Shown: one piece after another, positions 26,827 to 39,691 of the stretch
Layout of the letters: every line of letters starts with the position of its first letter
Position numbering within the stretch: position 1 is the stretch's first letter
Virus record (IMG/VR): IMGVR_UViG_3300028833_000054
Span: 246,482-310,481 of that record
Length of the DNA stretch: 64,000 nt
Direction: 5' to 3' (one strand)
Origin: a virus
Lineage: Duplodnaviria > Heunggongvirae > Uroviricota > Caudoviricetes
Position numbers and translations under genes: made by a program
The notes under the pieces: model-generated
Database searches by the model: none
Seen by the model: only the letters and a program-made list of their open reading frames with translations
Told to the model about the DNA's origin: nothing

Positions 26827-26962
26827 TAGCGGGGGTTGGACTTGAACCAACAATCTTTTGTGCCATGATACAAACGTTTTATCCTCGAAGTAGCTGTTTT
26901 AGATGACTACTATTTCTAGAGAAAGCTCCTAACAGATAATTTCTTTATTAAACTTCCCCGCT
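26827..26962 (-). ncRNA. tRNA-Y-module chimera 1 (module inserted in D-loop; ATCATGGC anticodon loop)
   Basis: Acceptor AGCGGGG/CCCCGCT, T arm GTTGG TTCAAGT CCAAC, insert ..TTTCT CTA GAAA TAG TAGTCA..CTACTTCG. Confidence 0.75.
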
Positions 26963-27003
26963 ATATAAAATTTGACTTAACTGAAATCCATAGAAATCAA
27001 ACA

Positions 27004-28653
27004 TTAGATGACGAGCTTGCGGATCTCATCTATGTGAGCAGAAGGATTGAACTCCTTAGTTGCAATATCCTGGAACATTGAAAGTCCATATCCGAAGTAG
27101 TAGTTGACCTTACCACCTGCAAGAGGTGTAGTACCGTATGCTGCAAGGTCAACAGCGTAGACGTAAGGGTCAGTAACGTCGTGGATGTAGCTCTTGTAAG
27201 CAGTGCTGGTCCAGTCTCCTGACCAGTAACCACGGCTGTTGCACTCGTTGTCTGAAAGGATTATGATACGGTCATAAACCCTCTTCAACCTACGAATTAA
27301 ATCAAATGCAGAAGCAATTGAAGTTCCACCCATGTTTGCGTTACCGATTTGACGGCCAAGGGTGAATACATCCGTGTTAGGATTGTATGAGTACATCTGA
27401 GCACTTGAACCGAAGCGGACAACGTCGGCGTTAGTTGCTTTCGCAATTGTTGCTGCGATAAGTCCTGCCTTCTCTGCTGCAGTGGTCTGAACGCGGTTGC
27501 TTGAACCACTGTAATAGCAGTAAGTGTTCATAGAGCCTGAGCAGTCAACCATAACGCAGGTCTTTCCAGGAAGAGCTTCTGCTAGGTTAGGAACTGCATA
27601 CTCATAACCCTTAAGGAGAGCCTGCATGACTCTACGTCCTTCAGCGGTTGAGCTGAATTCTTGCTTGACAGTCTCGTATGCGTAGTCAATCTGGTAAGGC
27701 ATAACCTTTCCCTGACGGATTTTTTCACCGTCTGAAACAAGCACACAAAGAGCGTCAATGACTTCCTTACGAGGACTCTTAAGCATGTTACGGACGTTAC
27801 GAATTGCAGCAAGAATACCAAGCTTACCATCAAGAAGAAGTCCCTGCCAGTTGTCATTCTTTGCTTCCGCAAGAACAACAGCAGCCTTCTCCTTAGAAAG
27901 CTTACCAGCCTTTACAGCTGCTGCAACCTCTTGACCAGCCTCTGAGTTTGCAGCCTCCCAAGTGTCAGCTGTAACAGTGAAACCCTGCATGAGTGCGTCA
28001 AGAGTCTTCATCGTCTTACCGTTGATAGTGACTTCAGCAGTAGAGAGCTTGCTCTTAGGGTGTGTTAAGTTTGCAATGTCAATTGCAGTGTCCTTGTACT
28101 TAGCAAGCTGGTAAGTATCAAGGTTCTCAAGAACTGAGGCGAAACCCTTCTTCATTGAGTTGCTCAATGCAGACTTGTTAAGCGCACAGTAAACGTCCTT
28201 GATTTCACTCATGTCATCAGGACGGTAAATAACTCCACCCTTCTGGGCCTTACGGTCCCAGAGTCCGTAAAAACGCTTAGCGTATTCGTTACCTGCAATG
28301 AAAGGTGCAGCAAGTGCAGCTGCAAGATGGCTGACAGCCCTCATACCTTCACCCATGCAACGAGACCAAACAATAATCTGAGCAAGAAAATAAGGGTCCT
28401 TGAGACCAACCTTCTCAATCAAATCACGGAGTTCCTTCATAGTTTGATTCTCAGAACGGTAGAACTGAGGCTCAAGCTTTAAGGTGTTCAACATAGATAC
28501 AAGACGAAGTTCATCACCAAGTGAATATGCCTTGTAACCTTGACGGTTTACAGTATTCTCAGCTGGAATACTTGCGATGTTTGCAACCGTCTCCTTTGAG
28601 GCCATAGCTCCTAGAGCTGACCTAAGCTGAGAGTTACGATCTTTCATCTTCAT
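27004..28653 (-). CDS. rsr: Ro60/TROVE-domain RNA-binding protein with C-terminal vWA
   Basis: N-terminal NRQGYKAYSL..ELRLVSMLNT..FY; R.EGMR; vWA VDCSGSM, GGT, ILSDNE. Confidence 0.9.
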   Translation of the reverse strand: MKMKDRNSQLRSALGAMASKETVANIASIPAENTVNRQGYKAYSLGDELRLVSMLNTLKLEPQFYRSENQTMKELRDLIEKVGLKDPYFLAQIIVWSRCMGEGMRAVSHLAAALAAPFIAGNEYAKRFYGLWDRKAQKGGVIYRPDDMSEIKDVYCALNKSALSNSMKKGFASVLENLDTYQLAKYKDTAIDIANLTHPKSKLSTAEVTINGKTMKTLDALMQGFTVTADTWEAANSEAGQEVAAAVKAGKLSKEKAAVVLAEAKNDNWQGLLLDGKLGILAAIRNVRNMLKSPRKEVIDALCVLVSDGEKIRQGKVMPYQIDYAYETVKQEFSSTAEGRRVMQALLKGYEYAVPNLAEALPGKTCVMVDCSGSMNTYCYYSGSSNRVQTTAAEKAGLIAATIAKATNADVVRFGSSAQMYSYNPNTDVFTLGRQIGNANMGGTSIASAFDLIRRLKRVYDRIIILSDNECNSRGYWSGDWTSTAYKSYIHDVTDPYVYAVDLAAYGTTPLAGGKVNYYFGYGLSMFQDIATKEFNPSAHIDEIRKLVI

Positions 28654-28716
28654 GGTTTTTGACTTTTAATTTTATAAATTAAAGAAATTTAATTCCTTAG
28701 AATTATCAAAAAGGAA

Positions 28717-28857
28717 AGCAGAGAATGTTAACACAGACATAACATTTTTTGATAAAACATTTCAAGTGTTTCGCGTGAACCATTTCGCCACTCGGGTGGA
28801 ACCCAAGACAGGAATCGAACCTGCAAATCGAAGTAAGTCTGTAGTTTGACTACTGCT
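28717..28857 (-). ncRNA. YrlA-like Y RNA (circularly permuted tRNA domain), 64 nt upstream of the Ro60 start
   Basis: AGCAG/CTGCT terminal stem, TAGTCA, ACAGAC/GTCTGT, TTACTTCG, then T arm, closed acceptor CTTGGGT TCC ACCCGAG, D arm, ASL CT TGA AA. Confidence 0.8.
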
Positions 28858-28859
28858 AG

Positions 28860-28932
28860 TGGAGAAGACGGGACTCGAACCCGCGACCCCTAGAATGCAA
28901 ATCTAGTGCTCTACCAATTGAGCTACAACCCC
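28860..28932 (-). tRNA. tRNA-Ala(TGC)
   Basis: Loop TT TGC AT; G3-U70. Confidence 0.9.
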
Positions 28933-28939
28933 ATATGTT

Positions 28940-29077
28940 CAACAAGAGAAAGCAGAAGAGAGTGTAAATATGTAGCATCTTATCAGAATTGAACTGATTA
29001 CCCCAGGCTCCCAAAGCTTGTGCTCTACCAAATGAGCTAAAAACGCGAAGTACCTCTTACTTCTTGACTACTTGCTG
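28940..29077 (-). ncRNA. Y-module stems enclosing a whole tRNA-Pro(TGG)-like domain (28974-29046)
   Basis: CAGCAAG/CTTGTTG, TAGTCA, GTACTTC; loop TT TGG GA; 3' TTTCT. Confidence 0.75.
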
Positions 29078-29153
29078 GTGGAAACTACTGGAGTCGAACC
29101 AGTGACCTTCTGCTTGTAAGGCAGACGCTCTAAACCAACTGCGCTAAGCTTCC
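29076..29153 (-). tRNA. tRNA-Val(TAC)
   Basis: Loop CT TAC AA, encoded CCA. Confidence 0.92.
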
Positions 29154-29163
29154 ATTATTATTG

Positions 29164-29257
29164 TGGTTGTGGCGGGATTTGAACCCTCGATTTCGCATGA
29201 GGCAGCGTCGTACTCCGTAAAGGCCTTAGGCCAATGTTTCTTTTCACGAGCACAACC
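29164..29257 (-). ncRNA. tRNA-like RNA with expanded D arm and no clear anticodon
   Basis: Acceptor GGTTGTG/CACAACC, T arm GAGGG TTCAAAT CCCGC, GGCC TAA GGCC hairpin in D region. Confidence 0.5.
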
Positions 29258-29263
29258 ATAAAA

Positions 29264-29395
29264 AATACAGAGAAAATTGAAAAGAATTATACCGGCATGG
29301 AGCCGTCGGCAGGAATCGAACCTGCTACCCTAAAATTACAAATTTTATGCTCTACCCCTGAGCTACGAAGAAACTCTTTTCGTGACTGCTGTATT
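29264..29395 (-). ncRNA. Y-module stems enclosing a tRNA-Thr(TGT)-like domain
   Basis: AATACAG/CTGTATT, CAGTCA, GAAAAGA/TCTTTTC, TTCTTCG; loop TT TGT AA; acceptor 5' strand degenerate. Confidence 0.75.
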
Positions 29396-29402
29396 AGATG
29401 TC

Positions 29403-29537
29403 ATCCAAAGAAAACGGAGAAGAAGTTGTTCAATGTTGGGAAATGCGGGACTCGAACCCGCGAATTCAAATTTGGAAGATTTGCGTTAAATCCACTTAAC
29501 TAATTTCTCGATGAATTTCTTTTCCTGACTATTGGAT
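29403..29537 (-). ncRNA. Y-module stems enclosing a tRNA-Gly(TCC)-like domain
   Basis: ATCCAA/TTGGAT, TAGTCA, TTCATCG; loop CT TCC AA; 3' TTTTCT. Confidence 0.75.
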
Positions 29538-29540
29538 TAG

Positions 29541-29615
29541 TGAGCATTGCTGGATTTGAACCAGCGACCTCTTGCCTGTCAAGCAAGCGCTCTTAACCAA
29601 CTGAGCTAAATCCTC
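29541..29615 (-). tRNA. tRNA-Val(GAC)
   Basis: Loop TT GAC AG. Confidence 0.9.
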
Positions 29616-29620
29616 ATATG

Positions 29621-29754
29621 AAGAGCCATACAGAGTTTGCAACCATTGTATGTTGTTACTTAGTGTTTTCAAGTCCATAAACTATCCCCCTTTGGAGGCC
29701 GTGATAGTAGCCAGTGACATGTTAACTACCTTGTACCTTCTCTAAGTATCTCTT
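29621..29754 (-). ncRNA. Three-way-junction RNA A with Cys-anticodon-like loop (TT GCA AA)
   Basis: AAGAG/CTCTT, ACTTAG/CTAAGT, ATACA..GG TTGCAAA CTC TGTAT; paralog at 29919. Confidence 0.65.
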
Positions 29755-29755
29755 G

Positions 29756-29829
29756 TGGACCGTAAGGGACTCGAACCCTTCCTATAGGCTTGCAAAGCCC
29801 ACGTGCTAGCCAACTATCACTAATGGCCC
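29756..29829 (-). tRNA. tRNA-Ala(TGC)
   Basis: Loop TT TGC AA; G3-U70. Confidence 0.85.
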
Positions 29830-29832
29830 ATT

Positions 29833-29909
29833 TGGAGTCGGGTGGCGGATTCGAACCGCCGCATATTGGTTTTGCAGACCAACCCTATAGACCGCTCAGG
29901 CAACCCGAC
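29833..29909 (-). tRNA. tRNA-Cys(GCA)
   Basis: Loop CT GCA AA; U73, CCA. Confidence 0.92.
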
Positions 29910-29918
29910 ATAATAGAA

Positions 29919-30053
29919 AAGAGCATTACAAAGTTTGCAACCCTTGTAAATTGTTACTATACAACTGCACCTGCCTGCAGTGAGCCGCGACTATGGGGTT
30001 ACTAGAGCATCTGTACACAATAACTCATCATCATAACCTGTATAGTATCTCTT
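29919..30053 (-). ncRNA. Three-way-junction RNA B with Cys-anticodon-like loop
   Basis: AAGAG/CTCTT, ACTATAC/GTATAGT, TTACA..GG TTGCAAA CTT TGTAA; covaries with copy A. Confidence 0.65.
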
Positions 30054-30059
30054 CAAGAG

Positions 30060-30153
30060 CGGAGACGATAGGACTCGAACCTACACACCGGGTTTGAACC
30101 GATTACTAATAGTTTTCAGGACTATTCCCTTACGCAATTAGGGTTACATCTCC
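30060..30153 (-). tRNA. tRNA-Ser(TGA), C33
   Basis: ATAGT CC TGA AA ACTAT, long variable arm. Confidence 0.85.
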
Positions 30154-30159
30154 ATAATG

Positions 30160-30247
30160 CGGTGAGTGAGGGATTCGAACCCCCGGACCGCTCATCACGA
30201 TCGGTGCTTTTCAAGAGCACTGCTATAGACCGCTCAGCCAACTCACC
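30160..30247 (-). tRNA. tRNA-Ser(TGA)
   Basis: GTGCT CT TGA AA AGCAC, long variable arm. Confidence 0.9.
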
Positions 30248-30253
30248 AGTATA

Positions 30254-30685
30254 TTATAATTTGTAATGCTTCATCTTCTTTGATTTGAAATTGTCTGTAA
30301 TTGAATGACAATTAGGACAAAGCATTTGCAAATTTTCTAATTTATTATTGTTATGGTCTCCATCAATATGATGAAGCTCCAATACAATTGGATGTCCCAT
30401 CCATTCTGTATTTCCACAACATTCACATCTTCTTTCTTTCAAACCTTCTTTCAAAAGTCTATCGTGTAAATGTGAAGTAGAATATCCAGGATATTTTCCA
30501 TCCAAAATATCTTGCAAATTATATTTTACTCCAGGATGATTTGTATCAAAAGAGTAATCAAATTTCTTACAATATTTTTCAAATGTGTTTCTATGCATAT
30601 TCAACTTGTGATATGCTTCTTGCTTTGTTTTACGCTCTGAACAGATTTGCAAAAACTCTTCTTTTGATATATCTTCGTATTTCAT
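30254..30685 (-). CDS. HNH homing endonuclease
   Basis: CECCG...LELHHIDGDHNNNKLENLQMLCPNCH. Confidence 0.9.
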   Translation of the reverse strand: MKYEDISKEEFLQICSERKTKQEAYHKLNMHRNTFEKYCKKFDYSFDTNHPGVKYNLQDILDGKYPGYSTSHLHDRLLKEGLKERRCECCGNTEWMGHPIVLELHHIDGDHNNNKLENLQMLCPNCHSITDNFKSKKMKHYKL

Positions 30686-30705
30686 TTCTCAAAAGATATT
30701 ATTTG

Positions 30706-30780
30706 CGGTGCGTACGAGGCTCGAACTCGTGACCTCCGGCGTGACAGGCCGGCATCCTAAACCAACTGAACGAACGCACC
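30706..30780 (-). tRNA. tRNA-Asp(GTC)
   Basis: Loop CT GTC AC. Confidence 0.92.
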
Positions 30781-30837
30781 GTATAATAAAATGGAGAACA
30801 TCAAATGCTCTCCATAATAAATCTATCAAGTTTTTAC

Positions 30838-31131
30838 TTATTCCTTCTCCTCGTCCTCTTTCTCCTTTTTGGGAGCTTCCAGATTGTGGGCTTTTCTAGT
30901 TGCAACCGTCATAATCCATGCATAAGCAATGACATCAACAATTACTACAAGAACAGGAGTCATAAGCAACCATTTTCCAACTTCTTCACCCCAATTTGCT
31001 TCAACTGGTGAATGACCTAAAATTACAAAATGGACAAAGAATGCAATCCAAATAATTGCAACAACAGCAAGTGAAAGCCACAAATATGCTTTCTTGCCCC
31101 AATTAATACCGTCTTGTCTACTCATATACAA
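30838..31131 (-). CDS. Small membrane protein (2 TM)
   Basis: Two hydrophobic segments, charged C-terminus. Confidence 0.7.
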   Translation of the reverse strand: MYMSRQDGINWGKKAYLWLSLAVVAIIWIAFFVHFVILGHSPVEANWGEEVGKWLLMTPVLVVIVDVIAYAWIMTVATRKAHNLEAPKKEKEDEEKE

Positions 31132-31174
31132 ATATTTTGATTTTTGTTCAATATATTTATTATGATAAATTTAG

Positions 31175-31249
31175 TCGGGATGGCGGGACTCGAACCCACG
31201 ACCACGTGATCCCAAATCACGCGTGCTAAACCAACTGCACCACATCCCG
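31175..31249 (-). tRNA. tRNA-Pro(TGG)
   Basis: Loop TT TGG GA. Confidence 0.92.
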
Positions 31250-31251
31250 TT

Positions 31252-31327
31252 TGGTTGGGATACCAGGGCTCAAACCTGGAACCTTCAGAGCCAGAATCTG
31301 ACGCTCTATCAATTGCGCTATACCCCA
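31252..31327 (-). tRNA. tRNA-Gln(CTG)
   Basis: Loop TT CTG GC; CCA. Confidence 0.9.
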
Positions 31328-31333
31328 ATATAG

Positions 31334-31617: not shown

Positions 31618-31622
31618 ATATG

Positions 31623-32257: not shown

Positions 32258-32403
32258 ATAGAGAAGAAAGTGAATGAATCTGGAATTCAAACATCCTGCT
32301 TAATAGGCGGGCGCTCTGCCAACTGAGCTAATTCACCAAAATGGTAGTGAATACTGGACTCGAACCAGTGAAACGAAGTAAGATTCACTCTGACTGTCTC
32401 TAT
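32258..32403 (-). ncRNA. YrlA-like permuted chimera (ASL CT ATT AA)
   Basis: ATAGAG/CTCTAT, CAGTCA, GAGTGAATC/GATTCATTC, TTACTTCG; T arm, closed acceptor ATTCAC TACCATTTTG GTGAAT, D arm, ASL. Confidence 0.8.
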
Positions 32404-32436: not shown

Positions 32437-32785
32437 ATTGTCAGGCATAGGTACCAGGATTCTGTTTACGGACCCCACCAACACCCTTCATGGTTCGGCT
32501 GCTACGGACGGCAATACCCAGCTAACAGGCCGGTGTTTCCTGTAAGAAGCTGACAGTTATGGTCGATCATCATAATACCAGCAACTAGTCTAAACTGTAA
32601 ACGGTAGTTGAAAGTATCCCTCGTTTGTAGTAACTTCTTCTGCGTGTGGTGATGGGCTACTCTTTAATCCATGCATTCGGAGCAGGCAGAAGGCTCTCTG
32701 GACTAATAATAAACGTCTTTGAGCAGATTGACGGATTGGCTTGTTTTAGTATCTGAACATTCACAGGGTAACCATGCCTCTCAAT
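32437..32785 (-). ncRNA. Candidate ~350-nt structured RNA
   Basis: Ends pair: ATTG..AGGCATGG.TACC with GGTA.CTATGCCT..CAAT. Confidence 0.4.
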
Positions 32786-32846
32786 CTGGAATTGACCTGT
32801 TACAGCGGGAGGATATATCATTTCACCTCGACCTGTTCGTTCATTG

Positions 32847-32925
32847 TGCTCCCGGGAGGACTCGAACCTCCATACCCCAGTTACGCCGTTAATGACTGTG
32901 TATAAGACAGGAGCGCTACGAGAGC
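32847..32925 (-). tRNA. Atypical tRNA-Ile(TAT)-like RNA lacking a D arm, with enlarged variable region
   Basis: GCTCTCG/CGGGAGC, CTGT CT TAT AC ACAG, T arm GGAGG TTCGAGT CCTCC. Confidence 0.55.
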
Positions 32926-33161
32926 AGGAACAGTTAATACGCCTGTCTTCCGTAGGTCTGTTGACCCCAAACAAAAGTTTGGATTAACTGTTAAAATAAT
33001 CTCCATCAAACTTACCGATGTATTCCCCTGGGATATCATCGCAGTTGGGATTCTGCTTGATTGGTACTTTTTCATTACCAGACCCAGTAGTGTATCGAGG
33101 TCGTCCGGTCAAAAGAGTTCCCGCTCTTTTCCGTAATAAGGATTTTCGTTGTAGAGGTCCC

Positions 33162-33295
33162 TGCGGCCTAAACTCTGTAATTATCAATTTACCCTTTATA
33201 AGAGGATTGGAAATACCGTTTGCCATCAGGTTTTCGCCCGGCCGGAGTTGAACCGACTAATATTCATAATTTTAATTTGAGTTTTGGCCGCCGCA
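33162..33295 (-). ncRNA. Circularly permuted tRNA-like RNA (ASL CT TAT AA) in a long closing stem; divergent Y-like
   Basis: TGCGGC/GCCGCA, AAACTC/GAGTTT, AATTAT/ATAATT; order T arm, closed acceptor, D arm, ASL. Confidence 0.6.
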
Positions 33296-33511
33296 ATTAT
33301 ATTTCATTTAATTTAAGTTCATATCTGTAATTTATTGAAATTCATTGATTTCAATAAATTATCTTATCTAAAATTTAATGTGACAGATTTATTTTAGTTC
33401 ACTCTGCCTATGATCCATAATTTAACAATATAATTGCAAGACTTGCAAGGAAAAAGGTCTTATGACAGCAACTGTCTACTAACCTTTCGTTTGATAGAAA
33501 TTTATTCTTTG

Positions 33512-33583
33512 TCACGCCAACGAGATTCGAACTCGTATTGCAGGAATGAAAATCCTGGATCCTAACCATTAGATGATAGCGCG
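33512..33583 (-). tRNA. tRNA-Glu(TTC)
   Basis: Loop TT TTC AT. Confidence 0.88.
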
Positions 33584-33593
33584 ATTTGTACTG

Positions 33594-33669
33594 TAAGCCG
33601 TGTCCGATTCGAACGGACGTCCTATGATTGAAAGTCACAGCGCCTCGACCACTAGCTGATTAACGGCTC
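33594..33669 (-). tRNA. tRNA-Glu(TTC)
   Basis: Loop CT TTC AA. Confidence 0.8.
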
Positions 33670-33674
33670 ATTTT

Positions 33675-33763
33675 AAAATCAAAGAATAACCAATAACAGA
33701 AAATGTTCAAATGTTTGAGTTGCAGTCAAATTCGAAGTAACTGTCATTGTGACTATTGATTTT
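33675..33763 (-). ncRNA. Minimal Y-module RNA carrying only an anticodon-like hairpin (CT GCA AC)
   Basis: AAAATCAA/TTGATTTT, TAGTCA, CAATGACAG/CTGTTATTG, TTACTTCG, TTTGA CTGCAAC TCAAA, ATTCT. Confidence 0.75.
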
Positions 33764-33765
33764 TG

Positions 33766-33902
33766 TGGACGGGGCTGGATTTGAACCAACATACGATTGT
33801 GCCATAAACAATTTGCTATACCTTCGAAGTAGCTCTTACCGATGACTACGTTTTGCCGAGAATGCTCAGAAGAGATAATTTCTTTTATTTGCATACCCGT
33901 CC
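33766..33902 (-). ncRNA. tRNA-Y-module chimera (D-loop insertion; ASL TT ATG GC)
   Basis: GGACGGG/CCCGTCC; D stem TGC/GCA encloses ..ATTCT CG GCAAAA CG TAGTCA..GCTACTTCG. Confidence 0.8.
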
Positions 33903-33911
33903 ATGTTTTTG

Positions 33912-34087
33912 CGGGGATATCAAGAATCGAACTTGATATTCTGGATTTTGTCCCAGAAATTACGAAGTATCTTTAATCTTGGCTGCTCCCTATATTTTGA
34001 TTTTTCCTCGGTGATTAGCCGAAGCCGCCTAGCAAAGAGAAAACAGACAAAGACATTTTGTAACGGTCTTACCTGACCAATATCCCC
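33912..34087 (-). ncRNA. tRNA-Y-module chimera (module replaces anticodon loop; long variable arm)
   Basis: GGGGATA/TATCCCC, D arm GGTC/GACC, TTAC/GTAA encloses TTTTCT...CAGCCA..ATACTTCG. Confidence 0.65.
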
Positions 34088-34401
34088 ATAGAAATAAAAC
34101 ATCAATATTGTTCTCTCCATACAGAATTCTCTTTGTGTATACGTCCTTCTGTTCTGACCAGATTTCAGTTCAAACAGAGGTAAACATGAATGAACCTTAT
34201 ACTGTTCCCCGAGTGTACTACCTTTATTGCGCACTAGGCAATGTACCCCCAACGAGTGGAGCCGGAACCGCCGGTATCGTCATACCGTACTGAGAACTTG
34301 ATGTTTTAAAAGATTGTTTGGGAAATGTGTTTGTAATTAGTCAACTTACAAGATTGATGCTTTAATAAGCTAGAAGTAACAGAACACGTAGCCAAACAGA
34401 G

Positions 34402-34737: not shown

Positions 34738-34808
34738 ATATTTGAAAGAACTTGTGTATATTTTATATTACAAATATATGAAAGTTTTTTGTAAATATAA
34801 AATTTTTG

Positions 34809-35361
34809 TGACCCCGACGGGGCTCGAACCCGTGACCCCGACATTAACTTACCACTATAGTTTTCACTACCAATATCATCCATTAACGACTTCTCGTTCA
34901 CCGGGTCTTTAGCCTAGTACGGGAATTGAACCCATCATATTGTTTGTAGTCTGGACTCTATCTTAACCATATTGAAATCTTGCAAGATACCATCACGGAT
35001 TTTACTGACTCTAACAGATTGTAGTCTTCCTTCACCAGCATGATAATTTCAACTTAGGTTCCTCCTGTATAGTCTCTACACACTGTCTATATCTCCACAT
35101 CCATCCTTATGTCCTCATTAGCCAATATTGAGTGATTTGGGGATTTCATTTGCTTCATAGATATTAACATTGGCTCGGTATTGGCATATTATCCTGTCCA
35201 AGCGGAGCTAACAATACTTTAAGTCACTTGGTCAAGCGAAAACCAGATAACTTAGCTTTCACCGAATTAGGGAGATTCTACTTTTAGCATTTCTGCTAAA
35301 GCACTCTTATGTTGTTAAAACAAGCAAAAGTGTCGTGCTCTACCAACTGAGCTACAAGGTC
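34809..35361 (-). tRNA. tRNA-Lys(TTT) interrupted by a group I intron
   Basis: Exons 35361-35328 (..CGACA CT T) and 34847-34809 (TT AA TGTCG..). Confidence 0.85.
34848..35327 (-). mobile_element. Group I self-splicing intron (480 nt, no ORF seen)
   Basis: P AATTCGGTGAAAGC, Q AATACCGAGCC, R GTAGAGACTA, S AAGATAGAGTCC; P1 CACTT/GAGTG with U-G at the 5' splice site; terminal G. Confidence 0.88.
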
Positions 35362-35507
35362 TTCCATATTTCTTCAAAGAACTTTTTTCTGTTTGCAAGT
35401 ACAAATATACGAATAATATTTTTAACCGCAAAATATTTTTTAAAAAATTTAAGCTCCTCAACCTTTTTGTTCGGATGAGGAGCTCTCGATTTCTTGTAAT
35501 CTTTATC

Positions 35508-35669
35508 TTAAAAATCTTCTTCTATCTCATCCATTTTCATTCCGCCTGAGTCATTGCCTGATTCTGGTTGTCCTTGACCCTCGGCTACTGTGCATACACC
35601 ACAACTTGCAAGGACTGATTTTCTGGTCAATCCTGCAAGAACGGGCAATATATTTGTATGCTGTAACAT
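35508..35669 (-). CDS. 53-aa small protein (SCGVC motif, acidic tail)
   Basis: MLQHTNILPVLAGLTRKSVLASCGVCTVAEGQGQPESGNDSGGMKMDEIEEDF*; own promoter and GAGCTCCTC-type terminator. Confidence 0.5.
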   Translation of the reverse strand: MLQHTNILPVLAGLTRKSVLASCGVCTVAEGQGQPESGNDSGGMKMDEIEEDF

Positions 35670-35785
35670 TGAATTCTAAAGTTTTTAAGTTTGTTTACAA
35701 TTTATATATCGTAAATATACGAAAGATTTTTTAATCTTCAAAATTTTATTATTTATTGCGAACTTGAGAGAAATTTCTCACTATT

Positions 35786-36187
35786 TTATTTTTGGCCATG
35801 TCTAGCTTGTATATCAGCATATAACTGTTTTGCTGTTTCTCCGTCAAGATGACTTGCACCATCTTTGTCTACCCAAACTTTAGCATTAGGATATCTTTTA
35901 CGCAAATCATCTTGTTCTTTTGCTTCTGTCTCTTTCTTATGGCAATTGTAACCATATCCAAATACTTGATAAAATAATGTTTCTAATGTAGGAAGTTCTG
36001 CATAAGATAAAGATTTTCCTATTCGTTGTTGATATGCTGCTACTGCTTTTTTAGAAACTGCTTTAGCTTCTTCCACCGGACTAGTGTTTCCTTCATCAAG
36101 ATGATTGACATATTTCATAACATCTTGCTTTCCATAAGACTCAACAAGTCTCTGAAGTTCTTTTCTATCTTTATCAATTTGTTTCAT
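35786..36187 (-). CDS. Paralog family with conserved N-terminal RLVESYGK leader, member 1
   Basis: MKQIDKDRKELQRLVESYGKQDVMKYVNHLDEG. Confidence 0.8.
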   Translation of the reverse strand: MKQIDKDRKELQRLVESYGKQDVMKYVNHLDEGNTSPVEEAKAVSKKAVAAYQQRIGKSLSYAELPTLETLFYQVFGYGYNCHKKETEAKEQDDLRKRYPNAKVWVDKDGASHLDGETAKQLYADIQARHGQK

Positions 36188-36241
36188 ATCAATATATAAT
36201 ATTTTTCTTCATGCACAAGAACGAGAGAAATTTCTCACATT

Positions 36242-36670
36242 TTAATCGTCATCAGTTAAAAGAGTTCTTGGACTTCTCATACGACCGAAGAATCCACGTG
36301 ATTCAATCTTGTCATACATATCTCTATATCCTCTATTATATCCTTCGTCTTTACCGTTCTGATAACCATCATTATATCCTTCTTCATAGGCTTCATCATA
36401 TCCTACTTTCTTACCTTCTTCTACTCCGAGTTCATAAGGTTCATTCTGAACAGTATCAACTAAATCTTCTAGAACTTGCTGTATTTGATTAAGTATTTCT
36501 TCTTTGAGACCTCCTGTAATTTCTGATATTCTACGTACACATTCCTGTACAGCATTCAAATCATCGTTACGGCTTTCATTGATATACAATACAAAATTTT
36601 TAACATCTTCTTTTCCATAAGATTCAACCAATCTCTTAAGAGTTTCTCTATCCATTTCTATCTGTTTCAT
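36242..36670 (-). CDS. RLVESYGK leader family member 2 (GYxxGY repeats)
   Basis: MKQIEMDRETLKRLVESYGKEDVKNFVLYINES. Confidence 0.8.
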   Translation of the reverse strand: MKQIEMDRETLKRLVESYGKEDVKNFVLYINESRNDDLNAVQECVRRISEITGGLKEEILNQIQQVLEDLVDTVQNEPYELGVEEGKKVGYDEAYEEGYNDGYQNGKDEGYNRGYRDMYDKIESRGFFGRMRSPRTLLTDDD

Positions 36671-36686
36671 ATATACTCATTTTATT

Positions 36687-37217
36687 TTACATCAAACCAA
36701 TATATAACTGAACCTCGCCTGTAGTATCATTGATAAATGCAAAGATTACAAAGTTAGGAAATTCAATTTTTTCAATAGAACAACTAGCATTTTCATATTC
36801 AAATCCTACAATTTCTTGTCCTCTGTTATTATTAACAACATTGTCCCAAATATCTTCTGCAGCGTTGCCAAAAAATGCATAGCAATCTTCATATTCACCC
36901 AATTCATCTACAATGTCACTTAATTCATAGCGCCATTCATTATATACATCATTTTGATCTTCTTCAGAATCAGGAACCCAAGCATTTATCATAGATGCAA
37001 TCAAAACATTTTTGTCATATTTACAATAAGAATAAACATCTTGAACGAGTTGTGATTTTATATATTGTTCATTGTTTACAGTGTCATAAATATATGTTAT
37101 AGCATCATCTTCGTTTATTCCTTCATTAAGATGATTTACAAACTTCAAAACATCTTGTTTACCATAAGACTCAACAAGTCTCTTGAGGGTTTCTCTATCT
37201 CTGTTTACAGTATTCAT
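36687..37217 (-). CDS. RLVESYGK leader family member 3
   Basis: MNTVNRDRETLKRLVESYGKQDVLKFVNHLNEG. Confidence 0.8.
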   Translation of the reverse strand: MNTVNRDRETLKRLVESYGKQDVLKFVNHLNEGINEDDAITYIYDTVNNEQYIKSQLVQDVYSYCKYDKNVLIASMINAWVPDSEEDQNDVYNEWRYELSDIVDELGEYEDCYAFFGNAAEDIWDNVVNNNRGQEIVGFEYENASCSIEKIEFPNFVIFAFINDTTGEVQLYIGLM

Positions 37218-37253
37218 ATTATAATAAATTTCAAATTTAAATATTTATCTAAC

Positions 37254-37281
37254 AAAAAAGGAACCTCTATAAGGTTCCTTC
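37254..37281 (-). terminator. Intrinsic terminator
   Basis: AAGGAACC/GGTTCCTT hairpin plus U-tract. Confidence 0.65.
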
Positions 37282-37303
37282 AATTCATTTTTTGAATTTT
37301 GTC

Positions 37304-37885
37304 TTATTCAACAGGCTTAACTTCACCAGTTACTCCATCAACTGCTACGAAATTAGTTCCGGTAGTTCCAAAGATATACAACGGAGTAAATGAGTCTGCG
37401 TTAGCAGGACGGCGGAAGGTCATCTTGTCTCCTGCAGGAAGTGTTACCAATGAGTCTGCAGCTGCCTGATAAAGCTTCTCAACTGCTGCGTCAAAGTCCA
37501 TGACAAGGTCTGGATGTTCAATATTAAAATCTCCAAGCCACTTTCCGAACTTCTTCTCAACTACAACCTCACCAGTCTCCCAAGTTCTGGTCTTAAGGAA
37601 TACTGTGTCTTCAACAGCATAGACAGTCATGCTTGAAACAATTGCAAGGTCTTCAGGTGCTGTCTCTGCAACATTTCCATTGAGAACAGTCTCAACCTCA
37701 TAAAGAGCGACGTGAGTGCTGTCATCTCCCAAAGACTGGACGTACTCATAGTCTTCCATCAAATAATCCTTAAATGTTGGAACAGCAGGCACAGGTTCTG
37801 CACTAGGCTTAAGAATGAGTACCAATCCAACTACGACAAGGCAGAGTGCTGCGATTGCCAAAATCCATTTCATTGAATTCTTCAT
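37304..37885 (-). CDS. Membrane-anchored or secreted protein with PepSY-like C-terminus
   Basis: N-terminal hydrophobic helix; C-terminal FVAVDGVTGEV. Confidence 0.7.
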   Translation of the reverse strand: MKNSMKWILAIAALCLVVVGLVLILKPSAEPVPAVPTFKDYLMEDYEYVQSLGDDSTHVALYEVETVLNGNVAETAPEDLAIVSSMTVYAVEDTVFLKTRTWETGEVVVEKKFGKWLGDFNIEHPDLVMDFDAAVEKLYQAAADSLVTLPAGDKMTFRRPANADSFTPLYIFGTTGTNFVAVDGVTGEVKPVE

Positions 37886-38179
37886 AATAAAAAATGTTTA
37901 ATTTAACTTAATATTCTTAATATTATATACTTAACAATGCAGAGATATTTGTCTACATCAGAATATCTTTGTATTTATCTGACAAAAAAGAGAAGCCGAA
38001 GCTTCTCTTAATTTAATAACCAAGGAACTTTATCAGGAATCTTGCTAACATATACCGAACTTGTGGCCCTATCTCCGAATCATAGGTTTTTGATAATAGT
38101 GGGCTTTCTCCTTCGTTACTTGTCATACTTATCTTATCCAACAACTTGTTACGTCCATATACTGCTTCCCACAACCATT

Positions 38180-38263
38180 AGAGAGTGTACTTAGTGTGAA
38201 CCTTTCCGAACTATTCTTGTTTGCAACCAAGAAGTGCCTGTCAATTCAGGTGACTGCTCTCCC
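38180..38263 (-). ncRNA. Degenerate tRNA-Cys-like RNA (G TTGCAAA C loop)
   Basis: GGGAGAG/CTCTCT ends, CCTG/CAGG hairpin, TTCTT/AAGAA stem with TT GCA AA loop; no proper T arm. Confidence 0.35.
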
Positions 38264-38296
38264 AGCTTGTTCCACTATCGTCTTCTTAGCTATTTG

Positions 38297-38381
38297 CACA
38301 CGGAGTAGGATTCGAACCCACGCGAGATTTTCATCTGTCGGTTTTGGAGACCGATGCCATCAACCACTAGGCTATCCGTGT
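38297..38381 (-). tRNA. tRNA-Trp(CCA) with a long variable arm
   Basis: TCGGT CT CCA AA ACCGA followed by CAGATGAAAATCTCG; A1-U72, G73. Confidence 0.8.
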
Positions 38382-38385
38382 ATTT

Positions 38386-38541
38386 AATCAGACTATAGCC
38401 AGGATTCTGTCATTTAAGATTGTCATTTAACTTTTCGTCTTACCCTGGTAGCAATAATTTGGGTAACCACCTATACTTAGACTTTCACATCCAAATCTGT
38501 GTCCTGAACTTCCTCTGTTTCCAGCGACAATCCATCTGATT
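38386..38541 (-). ncRNA. rnpB: Minimal RNase P RNA-like (catalytic domain only)
   Basis: P1 AATCAGA/TCTGATT; P2 GATTGTC/GACAATC; P3 CTG GAAA CAG; P4 GAGGAAGTTCAGGA with ACAGAATCCTGGCT; L15-like GGGTAAGAC. Confidence 0.75.
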
Positions 38542-38549
38542 ATTTATTG

Positions 38550-38622
38550 AGCCCCTTAGAGGAATCGAACCCCCATCTTCTCATTACGAAAGAGATATAC
38601 TCAACCGTTATACTAAAGAGGC
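38550..38622 (-). tRNA. tRNA-Thr(CGT)
   Basis: Loop TT CGT AA. Confidence 0.85.
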
Positions 38623-38627
38623 AAACC

Positions 38628-38808
38628 AAAAATCATTCATGCCTTATCGCAGCGCTACGATTAGCAGTTTTATCAGTAGTCGACCTTACTTAATAGCAAC
38701 TCCCTAACAAGGCTGGCACGGGATTTAACACTATTAAGATACATACCAGTTCGTCGTCATCCGCCTCAGAACAGGCCTTGAACCTGCAATTTCTACCGAA
38801 TGATTTTT
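38628..38808 (-). ncRNA. Candidate permuted tRNA-like RNA in an 11-bp closing stem
   Basis: AAAAATCATTC/GAATGATTTTT; T arm GCAGG TTCAAGG CCTGT near the 5' end. Confidence 0.45.
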
Positions 38809-38813
38809 TTGTG

Positions 38814-38888
38814 AGCTCCTAATCGGATTCGAACCAATACTTAAGCTTTACAGGGGCCTCGTGCTCAGCCATTAAACACCATAGGAGC
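38814..38888 (-). tRNA. tRNA-Thr(TGT), C33
   Basis: AGGCC CC TGT AA AGCTT. Confidence 0.7.
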
Positions 38889-38975
38889 AATTTAGGGGAC
38901 GCTGTGGCCCTCGCAACCACATCTCTGCAAAACTGACAGCATCTTTAGTCTACCTTAGACGAAGCCTCCCATATG

Positions 38976-39050
38976 TACTCCACCTCGGATTCGAACCGAG
39001 ACTGAAGGGATTTTAAGTCCCATGCCATCTTCCAGTTGGGCTAGTGGAGC
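38976..39050 (-). tRNA. tRNA-Leu(TAA), short variable loop
   Basis: TGGGA CT TAA AA TCCCT, 5-nt variable region. Confidence 0.82.
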
Positions 39051-39055
39051 ATTCT

Positions 39056-39127
39056 TCCGGCACTCTGCCTTTTGAGCTACCCGACCGCTTAATGGCCGGG
39101 GTAAGATTCGAACTTACAACCACCGGA
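39056..39127 (-). ncRNA. Circularly permuted tRNA opened at the anticodon loop
   Basis: TCCGG - V - GTAAG TTCGAAT CTTAC - CCCGGCC ATTAAGC GGTCGGG - TA GCTC AAAAGGCA GAGT G - CCGGA. Confidence 0.75.
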
Positions 39128-39133
39128 GTTCCG

Positions 39134-39206
39134 AGCTCAAAGACAGAATCGAACTGTCATCTCATCCTTACCAAGGATGCGTACTCAACCGTTATACTAT
39201 AAGAGC
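39134..39206 (-). tRNA. tRNA-Thr(GGT)
   Basis: Loop TT GGT AA. Confidence 0.9.
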
Positions 39207-39211
39207 ATTCG

Positions 39212-39282
39212 TATCCCCAAGCAGACTCGAACTGCTATCAAGAACTTAGGAGATTCTTATTCTTCCGTTGAACTATGGGAAT
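39212..39282 (-). tRNA. tRNA-Arg(CCT)
   Basis: Loop CT CCT AA. Confidence 0.88.
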
Positions 39283-39285
39283 ATT

Positions 39286-39365
39286 TGGTGGGGCCGACCA
39301 GAATCGAACTGGTGCTAACGTCCTGGCTCTTCAGGCCAGCGCTCTACCTGCTGAGCTACAACCCC
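39286..39365 (-). tRNA. tRNA-Phe(GAA)
   Basis: Loop CT GAA GA; CCA. Confidence 0.9.
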
Positions 39366-39373
39366 AATTTAAG

Positions 39374-39446
39374 TACCCCAGGAGGGAGTCGAACCCTCAG
39401 AAACTTGGTCCTTAGCCAAGCGTGTCTGCCATTCCACCACCGGGGC
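39374..39446 (-). tRNA. tRNA-Leu(AAG), short variable loop
   Basis: CTTGG CT AAG GA CCAAG. Confidence 0.82.
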
Positions 39447-39550
39447 ATAAAATAAGATAACCGTAGTTGAGTTTGTCCAAGGACTTCTATCTGCCATATT
39501 TTCTAGAGCTCAACATAGTGGCATTGATTACGTCCATGCAGTTATCTTAG

Positions 39551-39691
39551 TGGGGAGAGTTAGATTTGAACTAACGACACGGTCCTTTCAATGGAACTTC
39601 GAAGTAACTTTGACAATGACTATCTTTTCAGAAGAAAACTTGCAAAGCAAATTTTCGTTTTTACCTGCTCTACCAACTGAGCTATCTCCCC
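39551..39691 (-). ncRNA. tRNA(Phe-type body)-Y-module chimera (insertion in the anticodon arm)
   Basis: GGGGAGA/TCTCCCC, normal D and T arms; insert TTTTCT TCT GAAA AGA TAGTCA..TTACTTCG. Confidence 0.8.

What the first reader, a model, noticed from the sequence alone, without database searches (positions are those of the whole stretch)
26827..39691. Ro60/TROVE gene with about 11 tRNA chimeras carrying one shared module grafted at four different tRNA positions (candidate expanded Y-RNA/tRNA-decoy system)
Seen: on the minus strand a conserved module recurs as stem1-(T/C)AG(T/C)CA-stem2-(T)ACTTCG, with stem2'-(A/T)TTCT-stem1' on the partner strand and compensatory stem changes in the copies. Copies are at 26827, 28717, 28940, 29264, 29403, 32258, 33675, 33766, 33912 and 39551, plus a divergent one at 33162. 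The module is attached in the D loop, in the anticodon arm, at the variable loop of a circularly permuted tRNA, or around an intact tRNA, and these arrangements are circular permutations of each other. The ASL loops vary (TGA, TGG, TGT, TCC, ATT, TAT, GCA, ATG). Established: bacterial Ro60 (Rsr) genes lie next to Y RNAs, including tRNA-mimicking YrlA, and are linked to RNA repair/decay. Inference: this phage built a panel of Ro60-tethered tRNA mimics, e.g. decoys or repair templates against host anticodon nucleases, or adaptors steering Ro60 to specific tRNA-binding enzymes. I do not recall this many members or this positional diversity being described, but could not check.
Basis: partly seen in the sequence, partly recalled or inferred. 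Interest (0 to 1): 0.95.

Follow-up and report, generated by a model that had tools for sequence, protein, structure and literature searches.

The report
Phage Ro60 with tRNA-grafted Y RNAs
A 364-kb sheep-gut phage encodes a Ro60-type RNA-binding ring protein and ten small RNAs that share one conserved base-paired "handle" grafted onto whole, rearranged or partial tRNAs; the same handle sits beside Ro60 genes in crAss-like gut phages and in Bacteroidota chromosomes, so it looks like an undescribed class of Ro60 partner (Y) RNA.

Summary
Ten of the eleven listed copies exist at the stated coordinates on the minus strand; the one at 33162 does not. All share one module: helix H1, a UAGUCA x (N)UUUCU internal loop, a roughly 10-bp helix H2, and a UACUUCG tail.

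- **Not chance:** six exact matches against 0.00 expected.
- **Compensation:** the helices differ in sequence between copies but stay paired.
- **Graft positions:** the handle lies around whole tRNAs, at the variable-loop position of permuted tRNAs, as a capped hairpin in place of the D arm, or inside or next to the anticodon arm.
- **Protein:** ORF 27004-28653 is a divergent Ro60/Rsr, with a Ro60 fold and a conserved MIDAS motif.
- **Link to Ro60:** the handle sits on the same strand next to Ro60 genes in 17 of 18 phage contigs, including crAss001 and a 635-kb megaphage. It also lies upstream of rsr in Saprospiraceae and other Bacteroidota chromosomes. Two chimera types are conserved in crAss001.
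- **Not canonical YrlA:** it scores below the Rfam cut-off and lacks the GNCGAA motif.

Best reading: a new sequence class of YrlA-like Y RNA, expanded in phages. The decoy idea is untested. This scan has found the same handle family before on other DNA. I found no paper describing it.

The parts
27004..28653 (-). Ro60/Rsr-like protein gene (549 aa; helical-repeat ring plus vWA domain)
   Evidence: phrog_850 'RNA-binding protein' E 1.5e-37 over the full length. NCBIfam Rsr E 1.5e-6 over residues 25-471, far below its cut-off. PDB sequence hits to Thermus phage phiLo Ro60, 9KOP/9L5Y. The AF2 model (pLDDT 65) has all 13 top PDB fold hits as Ro60/Rsr over 500 or more columns. MIDAS D370/S372/S374 are invariant in 7 relatives.
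26828..26962 (-). Element A: tRNA-like RNA directly downstream of Ro60. It has an acceptor stem (AGCGGGG/CCCCGCU), a capped handle hairpin (H2', UUUCU, CUA-GAAA-UAG, UAGUCA, H2, UACUUCG) in place of the D arm, an anticodon-like arm and a T arm.
   Evidence: Sequence reading and coordinates. It is a paralogue of H and aligns with a crAss001 element. Caveat: the predicted H2 is weak and is not in the MFE fold.
26796..26822 (-). Terminator-like hairpin with a U run after element A
   Evidence: AUAGAGU-CUUGA-ACUCUAU followed by UAUUUUUU, read from sequence. Inference only.
28717..28857 (-). Element B: circularly permuted tRNA directly upstream of Ro60. The order is handle 5' strand, T arm, acceptor stem closed by a UUCCA loop, D arm, anticodon arm (loop CUUGAAA, UGA), handle 3' strand. 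The handle sits at the variable-loop position.
   Evidence: Model R1 gives 27.9 bits, E 0.004. Rfam YrlA gives a partial hit of 18.4 bits on the T-acceptor-D part.
28941..29076 (-). Element C: handle strands flank a complete tRNA-Pro(UGG). The G of UACUUCG is tRNA position 1.
   Evidence: ARAGORN and Rfam call a tRNA at 28974-29046, 55.7 bits. Helices read. An orthologous Pro(UGG) chimera exists in relative L006 at 6397. R1 gives only 15.8 bits because H2 has a bulge.
29265..29394 (-). Element D: handle (CAGUCA, tail UUCUUCG) around a Thr(UGU)-type body. The 3' acceptor strand can instead close on itself as CGGC-UCCAU-GCCG.
   Evidence: Rfam tRNA covers model positions 5-66 only, 51.2 bits. 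R1 gives 41.6 bits, E 4.7e-6. Structure. The same 5-66 type occurs in L004 at 9696 and L006 at 7124.
29403..29537 (-). Element E: divergent handle (UAGUCA kept, tail CAUCGAG, two A.C mismatches in H2) around tRNA-Gly(UCC)
   Evidence: R1 gives 23.3 bits, E 0.039. Rfam tRNA gives 58.7 bits.
32258..32403 (-). Element F: circularly permuted tRNA. It has a T arm, an acceptor stem closed by A-CCA-UUUU, a D arm and an anticodon arm (loop CUAUUAA). The handle sits at the variable-loop position, with a possible 4-bp helix UUCG/UGAA at its base.
   Evidence: R1 gives 30.1 bits, E 0.0014. Rfam YrlA gives a partial hit of 25.8 bits against a cut-off of 69.
33675..33763 (-). Element G: short form. The handle carries only a hairpin with a 7-nt loop, CUGCAAC.
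   Evidence: It was a training member of R1.
33767..33902 (-). Element H: tRNA-like RNA (acceptor GGACGGG/CCCGUCC) with a capped handle hairpin in place of the D arm, an anticodon-like loop UUAUGGC and a T arm
   Evidence: The MFE fold gives the expected hairpin. It aligns with A and with crAss001 6340-6470, including the linker AAAUAAAAGAAAUUAU.
33913..34087 (-). Element I: tRNA-like RNA (acceptor GGGGAUAU/AUAUCCCC) with a D-like hairpin. The handle (CAGCCA variant, H1 extended by an inserted hairpin) lies between the D arm and the anticodon arm. A T arm follows.
   Evidence: This is the most degenerate copy: H2 pairs at 7 of 10 positions.
39552..39691 (-). Element J: tRNA cloverleaf with normal acceptor, D arm and T arm. 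Its anticodon arm is replaced by a three-way junction that holds a capped handle hairpin (UCU-GAAA-AGA cap) and a mini anticodon hairpin (UCC-AUUGAAA-GGA).
   Evidence: Rfam tRNA gives 45.6 bits with an 81-nt insertion in the anticodon arm. The MFE fold is as expected. crAss001 carries the same chimera, with an identical D arm and UUGAAAG loop.
39057..39126 (-). Element K: permuted tRNA-like domain without a handle (T arm, closed acceptor, D arm, 4-bp closing stem), lying between two ordinary tRNA genes
   Evidence: It is the best Rfam YrlA match in the window at 37 bits, E 2.4e-6 to 3.7e-5, covering model positions 20-89. That is below the cut-off of 69.

Best explanation
These are Y-type partner RNAs of the phage's own Ro60 protein. 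They belong to a sequence class that differs from the published YrlA, YrlB and Yrn1 RNAs.

The handle. Each RNA has a constant handle: H1 (7-8 bp, either open at the RNA ends or capped by a GNRA-type loop), the internal loop UAGUCA x (N)UUUCU, H2 (about 10 bp), and the tail UACUUCG. I take the handle to be the docking site for the Ro60 ring. This is inferred by analogy with the stem of known Y RNAs.

The head. The head is variable: a whole tRNA, a circularly permuted tRNA that keeps its anticodon arm, a tRNA in which the handle replaces or invades one arm, or a bare hairpin. I take the head to be the effector part that presents a tRNA shape to tRNA-recognising host or phage factors. Candidates are RNase P, the CCA-adding enzyme, modification enzymes, nucleases, exonucleases such as PNPase, and the phage RtcB ligase.

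What is shown: the RNA architecture, its conservation with compensatory changes, and its tight genomic coupling to Ro60 genes in phages and bacteria.

What is inferred: Ro60 binding, and any downstream role such as tRNA surveillance or repair, or protection during the phage-host conflict over tRNAs.
For: 1. Coupling to Ro60.
- In the window, handles flank the gene on both sides (B upstream, A downstream).
- Relatives with 52-64% identical Ro60 carry 2-7 handles on the Ro60 strand.
- A phage whose Ro60 is 36% identical has one handle 185 nt upstream of the gene.
- crAss001 has at least 5 handles in the 900-nt unannotated gap just after its TROVE gene gp96. cr111_1 has 2, and the 635-kb phage LR745206.1 has 2.
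- Of 18 phage contigs with validated handles, 17 encode a full-length Ro60-like gene. The exception is a fragment judged 17% complete.

2. Cellular Bacteroidota. One to six tandem handles lie directly upstream of rsr on contigs of 287-660 kb and in the isolate Neolewinella aurantiaca. Model R1, built from nine foreign phage copies and one window copy, gives 21 hits at E<=0.1 in 25 bacterial Ro60 loci. All 21 are on the Ro60 strand.

3. Architecture. The layout parallels the Rfam YrlA consensus: helix, loop, helix, CUA/UAUG loop, 4-bp helix, T arm. The bacterial copies carry a YrlA-type head of T arm, closed acceptor and D arm.

4. Selection on structure. R1 finds window copies D, F, B and E, which were not in its training set.

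5. The protein is a Ro60-fold protein.

6. RNA libraries. Contigs from two sheep-gut samples cover Ro60 together with its flanking handles: X3 covers 27070-29703 and 33513-34261, and X4 covers 26863-28841. This shows presence in RNA libraries only, not proof of transcription.

7. Timing. The crAss001 TROVE gene is an early gene (PMC8375218).
Against: - No binding, expression-end or processing data exist for any of these RNAs.
- The motif thought to contact Ro60 in known Y RNAs is absent from the handle. That motif is GNCGAAN0-1G (Chen 2014, PMC4201824), or the 'CGAA motif' (PMC12135203). Only a loose YGAA/UUCG pairing appears in some phage copies, and none in the bacterial ones.
- Rfam YrlA scores are far below its cut-off.
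- Predicted folding energies of the capped handles are no better than those of shuffled sequence, with z from -2.3 to +0.5.
- Handles around intact tRNAs (C, E) could simply be leader-trailer duplexes of real pre-tRNAs.
- Co-location shows linkage to the Ro60 gene, not which protein touches the RNA.
Confidence: 0.74

Rival explanations
1. The handle is a maturation signal, not a stable RNP scaffold. Leader and trailer, or an internal hairpin, would form a duplex that directs a nuclease, or a Ro60-assisted 3'-5' exonuclease. RNase P and end-trimming would then release functional or split tRNAs. The permuted copies would be cut in the acceptor loop that encodes CCA.
For: - In C, and in its orthologue at L006 6397, the tail runs straight into tRNA position 1. 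The embedded Pro and Gly tRNAs score as good tRNAs at 55.7 and 58.7 bits.
- The acceptor loops of F, D, B and L005 7951 contain N-CCA.
- M. smegmatis YrlA is cut by RNase P and receives CCA in vivo (PMC4201824).
- The phage encodes RtcB.
Against: - Every handle-borne anticodon seen here (Pro UGG, Thr UGU, Gly UCC, Ser UGA, Cys GCA) is also supplied by a conventional tRNA in the same array.
- Types A, H, I and J would lack a D arm or a normal anticodon arm after any simple excision.
- Short forms (G, and several in crAss001 and in bacteria) carry no tRNA at all.
- Bacterial copies upstream of rsr have closed acceptor hairpins without CCA and no anticodon arm.
- Most relatives' permuted copies lack CCA.
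Confidence: 0.13
2. The handle is bound by some other factor that is co-inherited with Ro60, either phage- or host-encoded, and Ro60 acts on different RNAs.
For: - The canonical Ro60-contact motif is absent.
- Several small ORFs of unknown function lie next to Ro60, at 25927-26454 and 26442-26792.
Against: Across crAss-like phages, jumbo phages and Saprospiraceae chromosomes, the Ro60-like gene was the one protein gene I consistently found beside handle arrays. The other neighbours I saw differ between loci, for example tRNAs, HNH or structural genes. I did not test neighbour conservation systematically.
Confidence: 0.08
3. The module is a selfish or intron-like insertion (a mobile RNA/DNA element, a self-cleaving ribozyme, or an archaeal-type bulge-helix-bulge intron) that has spread into tRNA genes.
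For: - It sits at several positions inside tRNA genes, in circularly permuted arrangements. That pattern is also typical of small ribozymes and of BHB-processed tRNA genes.
- HNH and GIY-YIG endonuclease genes lie in the array.
Against: - Copies share only the short loop and tail motifs. Helix sequences are about 35% identical, which is the opposite of recent transposition.
- Orthologous chimeras are kept between distant phages.
- No Rfam ribozyme or intron family matches, even at E<=10.
- Read by eye, there is no 3-4-3 BHB geometry and no hammerhead or hairpin-ribozyme core on one strand.
Confidence: 0.03

Closest known systems
YrlA (Rfam RF02553; Chen et al. 2014, PMC4201824), the tRNA-mimicking Y RNA of bacteria and mycobacteriophages
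   Same: - It is encoded within a few kb of Ro60 on the same strand, sometimes in several copies.
- A long stem with two internal loops leads to a tRNA-like domain.
- Elements B, F and K, and the bacterial copies, show the permuted order T arm, closed acceptor, D arm.
- The M. smegmatis YrlA acceptor loop is cut by RNase P and gains CCA. Some phage copies here encode CCA in that loop.
   Different: - The stem has different conserved nucleotides: UAGUCA/UUUCU/UACUUCG instead of GNCGAAN0-1G.
- Rfam scores are 18-37 bits against a cut-off of 69.
- The phage heads keep a full anticodon arm or are whole tRNAs.
- The handle attaches at the variable-loop, D-arm or anticodon-arm position, or around the acceptor, and can be a capped internal hairpin.
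- There are 10 copies in one genome.
Thermus phage phiLo Ro60 with Yrl1/Yrl2 (NAR 2025, PMC12135203; PDB 9KOP, 9L5Y)
   Same: A phage-encoded Ro60 with adjacent phage-encoded partner RNAs. This protein is the closest solved relative of the window protein by sequence and by fold.
   Different: phiLo has two RNAs with a stem-bulge-stem shape and the CGAA motif, and no tRNA bodies are described for them. Here there are ten RNAs with another motif set and tRNA heads. Binding to Ro60 and to host PNPase was shown for phiLo but not here.
Deinococcus radiodurans Yrn1 / Salmonella YrlA-Rsr-PNPase (RYPER) and the rsr-yrlBA-rtcBA RNA-repair operon (PMC4201824, PMC7790460)
   Same: The concept is the same: a Y RNA stem docks on Ro60 and a second module tethers another factor. 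There is also a genomic association with RtcB-type RNA repair, since the phage encodes RtcB elsewhere.
   Different: Here RtcB is not adjacent to Ro60, and no PNPase link could be tested.
Circularly permuted and intron-bearing tRNA genes of archaea and Cyanidioschyzon (BHB-dependent processing; PMC4090602)
   Same: tRNA bodies are interrupted or permuted at several positions by one recurring structured element.
   Different: There is no bulge-helix-bulge geometry. The element has conserved loops and a 10-bp helix, travels with Ro60, and also occurs without any tRNA.

Membership tests
Y RNA (functional class: Ro60-bound ncRNA) | Encoded next to a Ro60 gene, same strand | tested here: met
   The window, 16 further phage contigs and bacterial rsr loci all show this. 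All 21 R1 hits in bacterial loci are on the Ro60 strand.
Y RNA (functional class: Ro60-bound ncRNA) | Long stem with a conserved internal loop or bulge, plus a variable effector module; about 80-150 nt | tested here: met
   H1, internal loop, H2, with compensatory changes. Element sizes are 89-175 nt.
Y RNA (functional class: Ro60-bound ncRNA) | Physically bound by Ro60 | not testable with these tools
   Needs RIP/CLIP or EMSA.
YrlA (Rfam RF02553) | Score at or above the gathering cut-off (69 bits) | tested here: not met
   The best score is 37 bits, on the handle-less element K. F scores 25.8 and B 18.4. There were no gathering-level hits in 18 related phage and bacterial loci.
YrlA (Rfam RF02553) | GNCGAAN0-1G motif near the 5' end | tested here: not met
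   The motif is absent from the 5' strands of all copies. Only a loose YGAA opposite UUCG appears in some phage copies.
YrlA (Rfam RF02553) | tRNA-like domain in the order T arm, closed acceptor stem, D arm | tested here: met
   Met in B, F and K, and in bacterial copies. Not met in A, C, E, G, H, I and J.
YrlA (Rfam RF02553) | Ro-binding stem takes the place of the anticodon stem (no anticodon arm) | tested here: not met
   B and F keep a 5-bp anticodon stem with a 7-nt loop, and the handle leaves at the variable-loop position.
Ro60/Rsr protein | Helical-repeat ring (TROVE) followed by a vWA domain | tested here: met
   The top 13 PDB fold matches are all Ro60/Rsr over 500 or more columns, E 3e-13 to 1e-10. 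Model confidence is moderate at pLDDT 65. phrog_850 matches over the full length.
Ro60/Rsr protein | MIDAS motif DxSxS in the vWA domain | tested here: met
   D370, S372 and S374 are invariant in 7 relatives.
Ro60/Rsr protein | Curated family models (Pfam TROVE / vWA_Ro60, NCBIfam Rsr equivalog) above cut-off | tested here: not met
   vWA_Ro60 scores 25.6 against 27.7. There is no TROVE hit at E<=0.01. NCBIfam Rsr scores 27 bits against 900. It is a divergent member, not an equivalog.
Functional tRNA (elements C and E) | Full cloverleaf recognised by tRNA models | tested here: met
   Rfam gives 55.7 and 58.7 bits. ARAGORN calls Pro(UGG) and Gly(UCC). Whether they are released and charged was not testable.
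BHB-type tRNA intron / permuted tRNA gene | Bulge(3)-helix(4)-bulge(3) at the junctions | tested here: not met
   The junction is a 6 x 5-8 nt internal loop between helices of 7-8 bp and about 10 bp.
Small self-cleaving ribozymes | Match to a known ribozyme core | tested here: not met
   No Rfam ribozyme family appears in the E<=10 hit list of the region.

The most novel reading that the evidence does not exclude
The phage chimeras are working parts of a tRNA-centred counter-defence, not passive mimics. Handle RNAs that keep a canonical anticodon loop, and in some cases an encoded CCA in the acceptor loop, would be cut by RNase P into two-piece, Ro60-held tRNA bodies. These would act in one of two ways. 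They could serve as sacrificial substrates that soak up host anticodon nucleases. Alternatively, they could serve as platforms on which Ro60, an exonuclease and the phage RtcB triage and repair cleaved tRNAs early in infection, in crAss-like phages as well.
Probability: 0.12. Interest if true: 0.9.

Novelty: new variant of a known kind. Interest (0 to 1): 0.72.

Why it matters
Ro60 and its Y RNAs are conserved from bacteria to humans, yet what the tRNA-like part of bacterial Y RNAs does is still open.

This finding adds three things:
- **A second handle.** There is a well-defined handle sequence class that Rfam does not cover. It is present in Bacteroidota chromosomes and in their phages, including crAss001. 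crAss001 is a cultured member of the most abundant phage group of the human gut, and there the RNAs lie in an unannotated 900-nt gap after an early TROVE gene.
- **A modular handle.** Evolution has plugged it into tRNAs at several positions and kept those chimeras across distant phages. That argues the tRNA shape, anticodon loop included, is the functional cargo.
- **A tractable system.** crAss001 with Bacteroides intestinalis could be used to test what Ro60-tRNA-mimic particles do during infection.

Tried and rejected
- **Canonical YrlA or another Rfam family.** Only sub-threshold partial YrlA hits on the tRNA-like parts appeared. Nothing else was found in the window or in 18 related loci.
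- **Hidden Ro60 site.** I looked for the known Ro60 contact motif (GNCGAA/CGAA) in disguise. A YGAA/UUCG helix next to UAC resembles YrlA's CGA/UCG plus ACUUG in some phage copies. The bacterial copies lack the partner, so this stays unresolved.
- **Ribozyme or intron readings.** By eye, a hammerhead, a hairpin ribozyme (AGUC and AGAA fall on opposite strands) and BHB geometry do not fit.
- **Copy at 33162.** It has no motifs, no helices and no R1 hit.
- **Capped forms, consensus fold.** RNAalifold on the 8 capped-handle segments gave no consensus structure, because bulges break the MAFFT alignment.
- **Capped forms, single folds.** Seven of the 8 take the expected shape, but their energies are not better than shuffles.
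- **Partner-strand scoring.** Without the UUCU requirement it gives many false positives at scores of 15 or less. I counted only copies with the UUCU-type loop.
- **Region 34750-35520.** Tandem and direct repeat searches found nothing that explains the RNA-contig 'skips'.
- **Papers not held.** The supplement of Chen 2014, the Sim et al. 2020 review and Burroughs & Aravind 2016 were not held. I could not check whether Bacteroidota loci were listed there.
- **Metatranscriptome depth.** RNA-library contigs range from 7 to about 870 in depth, while one DNA run is flat at about 22. This is at most a weak hint of transcription. The tool warns that contig depth cannot rank genes and that DNA can be present in RNA libraries.
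- **R1 on the whole genome.** With default filters it found only D and G, so there is no evidence for copies outside the window.

Full report
**Setting.** The window lies in a 364-kb, 35% GC IMG/VR phage record. Near-identical DNA occurs in sheep, goat and bovine gut runs. Between 21.5 and 41.7 kb, the minus strand carries about 47 tRNA genes. Within the array are a 549-aa ORF (27004-28653), HNH and GIY-YIG endonuclease genes, and small ORFs of unknown function.

**The protein.** The ORF is a divergent Ro60/Rsr.
- phrog_850 'RNA-binding protein' matches end to end at E 1.5e-37.
- NCBIfam Rsr aligns over residues 25-471 but far below its cut-off.
- Pfam finds only the vWA part, with vWA_Ro60 just under threshold.
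- The only PDB sequence hits at E below 0.01 are the Thermus phage phiLo Ro60 entries.
- An AlphaFold model from seven relatives has moderate confidence (pLDDT 65). Its 13 best PDB fold matches are all Ro60/Rsr structures over 500 or more columns.
- The MIDAS residues DxSxS are invariant among relatives.

**The observation.**
- *Chance.* On the minus strand, the motif YAGYCA-N-WCTTCG occurs nine times in the array, once elsewhere in the genome, and never on the plus strand. The exact form occurs six times against 0.00 expected.
- *Partner strand.* Each copy has a partner strand. Together they give helix H1 (7-8 bp), an internal loop UAGUCA x (N)UUUCU, helix H2 (about 10 bp, usually ending GU/AC) and a single-stranded UACUUCG.
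The copy at 33162 does not exist.
- *Extra element.* Element K (39057-39126) is a permuted tRNA-like domain without a handle. It gives the best YrlA score in the window, 37 bits.

**Topologies.** The handle appears in two circularly permuted forms.
- *Open form.* H1 is made by the RNA's two ends and the head lies beyond H2. The head can be a whole tRNA (C Pro-UGG, E Gly-UCC), a Thr-UGU body with an alternative closed acceptor hairpin (D), or a bare hairpin (G). It can also be a permuted tRNA reading T arm, acceptor closed by a CCA-containing loop, D arm, anticodon arm, so that the handle leaves at the variable-loop position (B, F).
- *Capped form.* H1 is 2-4 bp closed by GAAA, GUAA or a similar loop. 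The whole handle is then an internal hairpin of an otherwise tRNA-like cloverleaf. It stands in place of the D arm (A, H), between a D hairpin and the anticodon arm (I), or in a three-way junction inside the anticodon arm (J).

Most anticodon-like loops are canonical 7-nt loops with U33 and a purine at position 37. The anticodons carried on handles (UGG, UGU, UCC, UGA, GCA) are also supplied by ordinary tRNAs in the same array.

**Is the structure selected?**
- Helix sequences are about 35% identical between copies, yet pairing is kept at 0.97 and 0.92 against about 0.5 for shuffled partners. Each position shows 3-6 pair types. That set was selected for pairing.
- The cleaner control comes from the roughly 118 IMG/VR hits to the 5' pattern. 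Only those in Ro60-encoding contigs have a partner strand.
- RNAalifold on ten short forms from seven phages recovers H1 and H2, with 13 of 16 pairs showing double compensatory changes.
- A covariance model from that alignment (R1) finds window elements D, F, B and E, which were not in the training set.
- Thermodynamic stability alone is unremarkable.

**Link to Ro60.**
- *In the window:* B ends 64 nt upstream of the Ro60 start, and A starts 42 nt after its stop and is followed by a terminator-like hairpin.
- *Relatives with 52-64% identical Ro60:* each carries 2-7 handles on the Ro60 strand.
- *A 104-kb phage with 36% identical Ro60:* one handle lies 185 nt upstream of the gene.
- *crAss001:* at least five handles lie in the 900-nt gap after TROVE gene gp96. 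cr111_1 has two, one of them around tRNA-Gln, and the 635-kb phage LR745206.1 has two.
- *A second pattern scan:* this added more handle contigs. Overall, 17 of 18 contigs encode a full-length Ro60-like gene, and the exception is a fragment judged 17% complete.
- *Cellular genomes:* Saprospiraceae, Lewinellaceae, Cyclobacteriaceae and Chitinophagales contigs of up to 660 kb, and the isolate Neolewinella aurantiaca, carry one to six tandem handles directly upstream of rsr. Some have classic YrlA-type heads. Some shorter MAG contigs with large tRNA arrays may themselves be phage.
- *Strand bias:* R1 gives 21 hits in 25 such loci, all on the Ro60 strand.

**Age of the chimeras.** Element J aligns with a crAss001 element that has the same D arm, the same capped handle in the anticodon arm and the same UUGAAAG loop. 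A and H align with another crAss001 element, including the linker. The Pro-UGG chimera and the '5-66' Thr-type chimera recur in relatives. The set is therefore inherited and maintained, not assembled by this phage.

**Relation to known families.**
- The layout parallels the Rfam YrlA consensus, and B, F and K share YrlA's permuted T-acceptor-D order.
- Membership fails on three counts: score; the GNCGAAN0-1G motif (PMC4201824; 'CGAA motif' in PMC12135203); and the presence of an anticodon arm.
- I found no paper on Y RNAs of Bacteroidota or crAss-like phages. crAss papers mention only the TROVE protein, as an early gene.
- Jumbo-phage surveys note TROVE proteins 'with a tRNA-like partner' in general terms.
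- Earlier notes of this scan describe the same kind of handle beside Ro60 in other phages and bacteria. This is therefore a repeat sighting within the scan, here with the largest and most varied set.

**Mechanism.** I commit to a Ro60/Y-RNA particle (0.74).
- The handle docks the Ro60 ring, and the head presents a tRNA shape.
- Shown: the architecture, its conservation, and its coupling to the Ro60 gene.
- Inferred: binding, and the downstream role.
[quoted passage not shown] That role is untested.
- RNA-library contigs from sheep gut cover Ro60 together with its flanking handles. This shows presence in RNA libraries, not proven transcripts.

**Verdict.** The feature is real and non-random. 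It is a new sequence and topology variant of the Y-RNA kind.

Noticed in passing
window 39057-39126 (-): A handle-less permuted tRNA-like domain (T arm, closed acceptor, D arm, 4-bp closing stem) sits between tRNA-Thr and tRNA-Leu. It gives the best Rfam YrlA score in the window: 37 bits against a cut-off of 69.
   Followed up: partly
window 32454-33300 (-): Contigs from sheep-gut RNA libraries covering this ORF-poor stretch have very high depth, about 870-2600, against about 22 in a DNA run. The stretch contains T-arm-like hairpins (about 33240-33262 and about 32860-32880) and a weak tRNA hit at 32847-32925. It may be a large structured RNA of unknown kind.
   Followed up: partly
window 34818-35418: This region has the highest RNA-library contig depth in the area, up to about 5970. 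Many contigs replace or skip segments of 53-76 nt. It has no ORF of 50 aa or more between 34912 and 35508 and no internal repeats. It could be a hypervariable, abundant non-coding region.
   Followed up: partly
window 24026-24097 (-): A tRNA with anticodon CUA (called 'Pyl' by ARAGORN) is a possible amber suppressor. That would fit the stop-codon recoding known in some large gut phages. The Ro60 ORF itself is open under code 11.
   Followed up: no
window 30254-30685 (-) and 40488-41192 (-): HNH and GIY-YIG homing-endonuclease-like genes are embedded in the tRNA array.
   Followed up: no
G000:C1:53451-54575 (+), outside the window: The phage encodes an RtcB RNA ligase (Pfam 150 bits) about 190 kb away from the Ro60 cluster.
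   Followed up: partly
L132 (crAss001 NC_049977.1) locus 5811-6716: The 900-nt 'empty' gap after TROVE gene gp96 holds at least five handle RNAs: two short forms, one tRNA with the handle in its anticodon arm, one with the handle in place of the D arm, and one long A-rich form. None is annotated in the record.
   Followed up: yes
L148, L156, L173 (short contigs binned as Saprospiraceae MAGs): Ro60 genes are preceded by arrays of up to about 35 tRNA genes plus handle RNAs. These contigs may be phage or mobile tRNA-array elements rather than chromosome.
   Followed up: no
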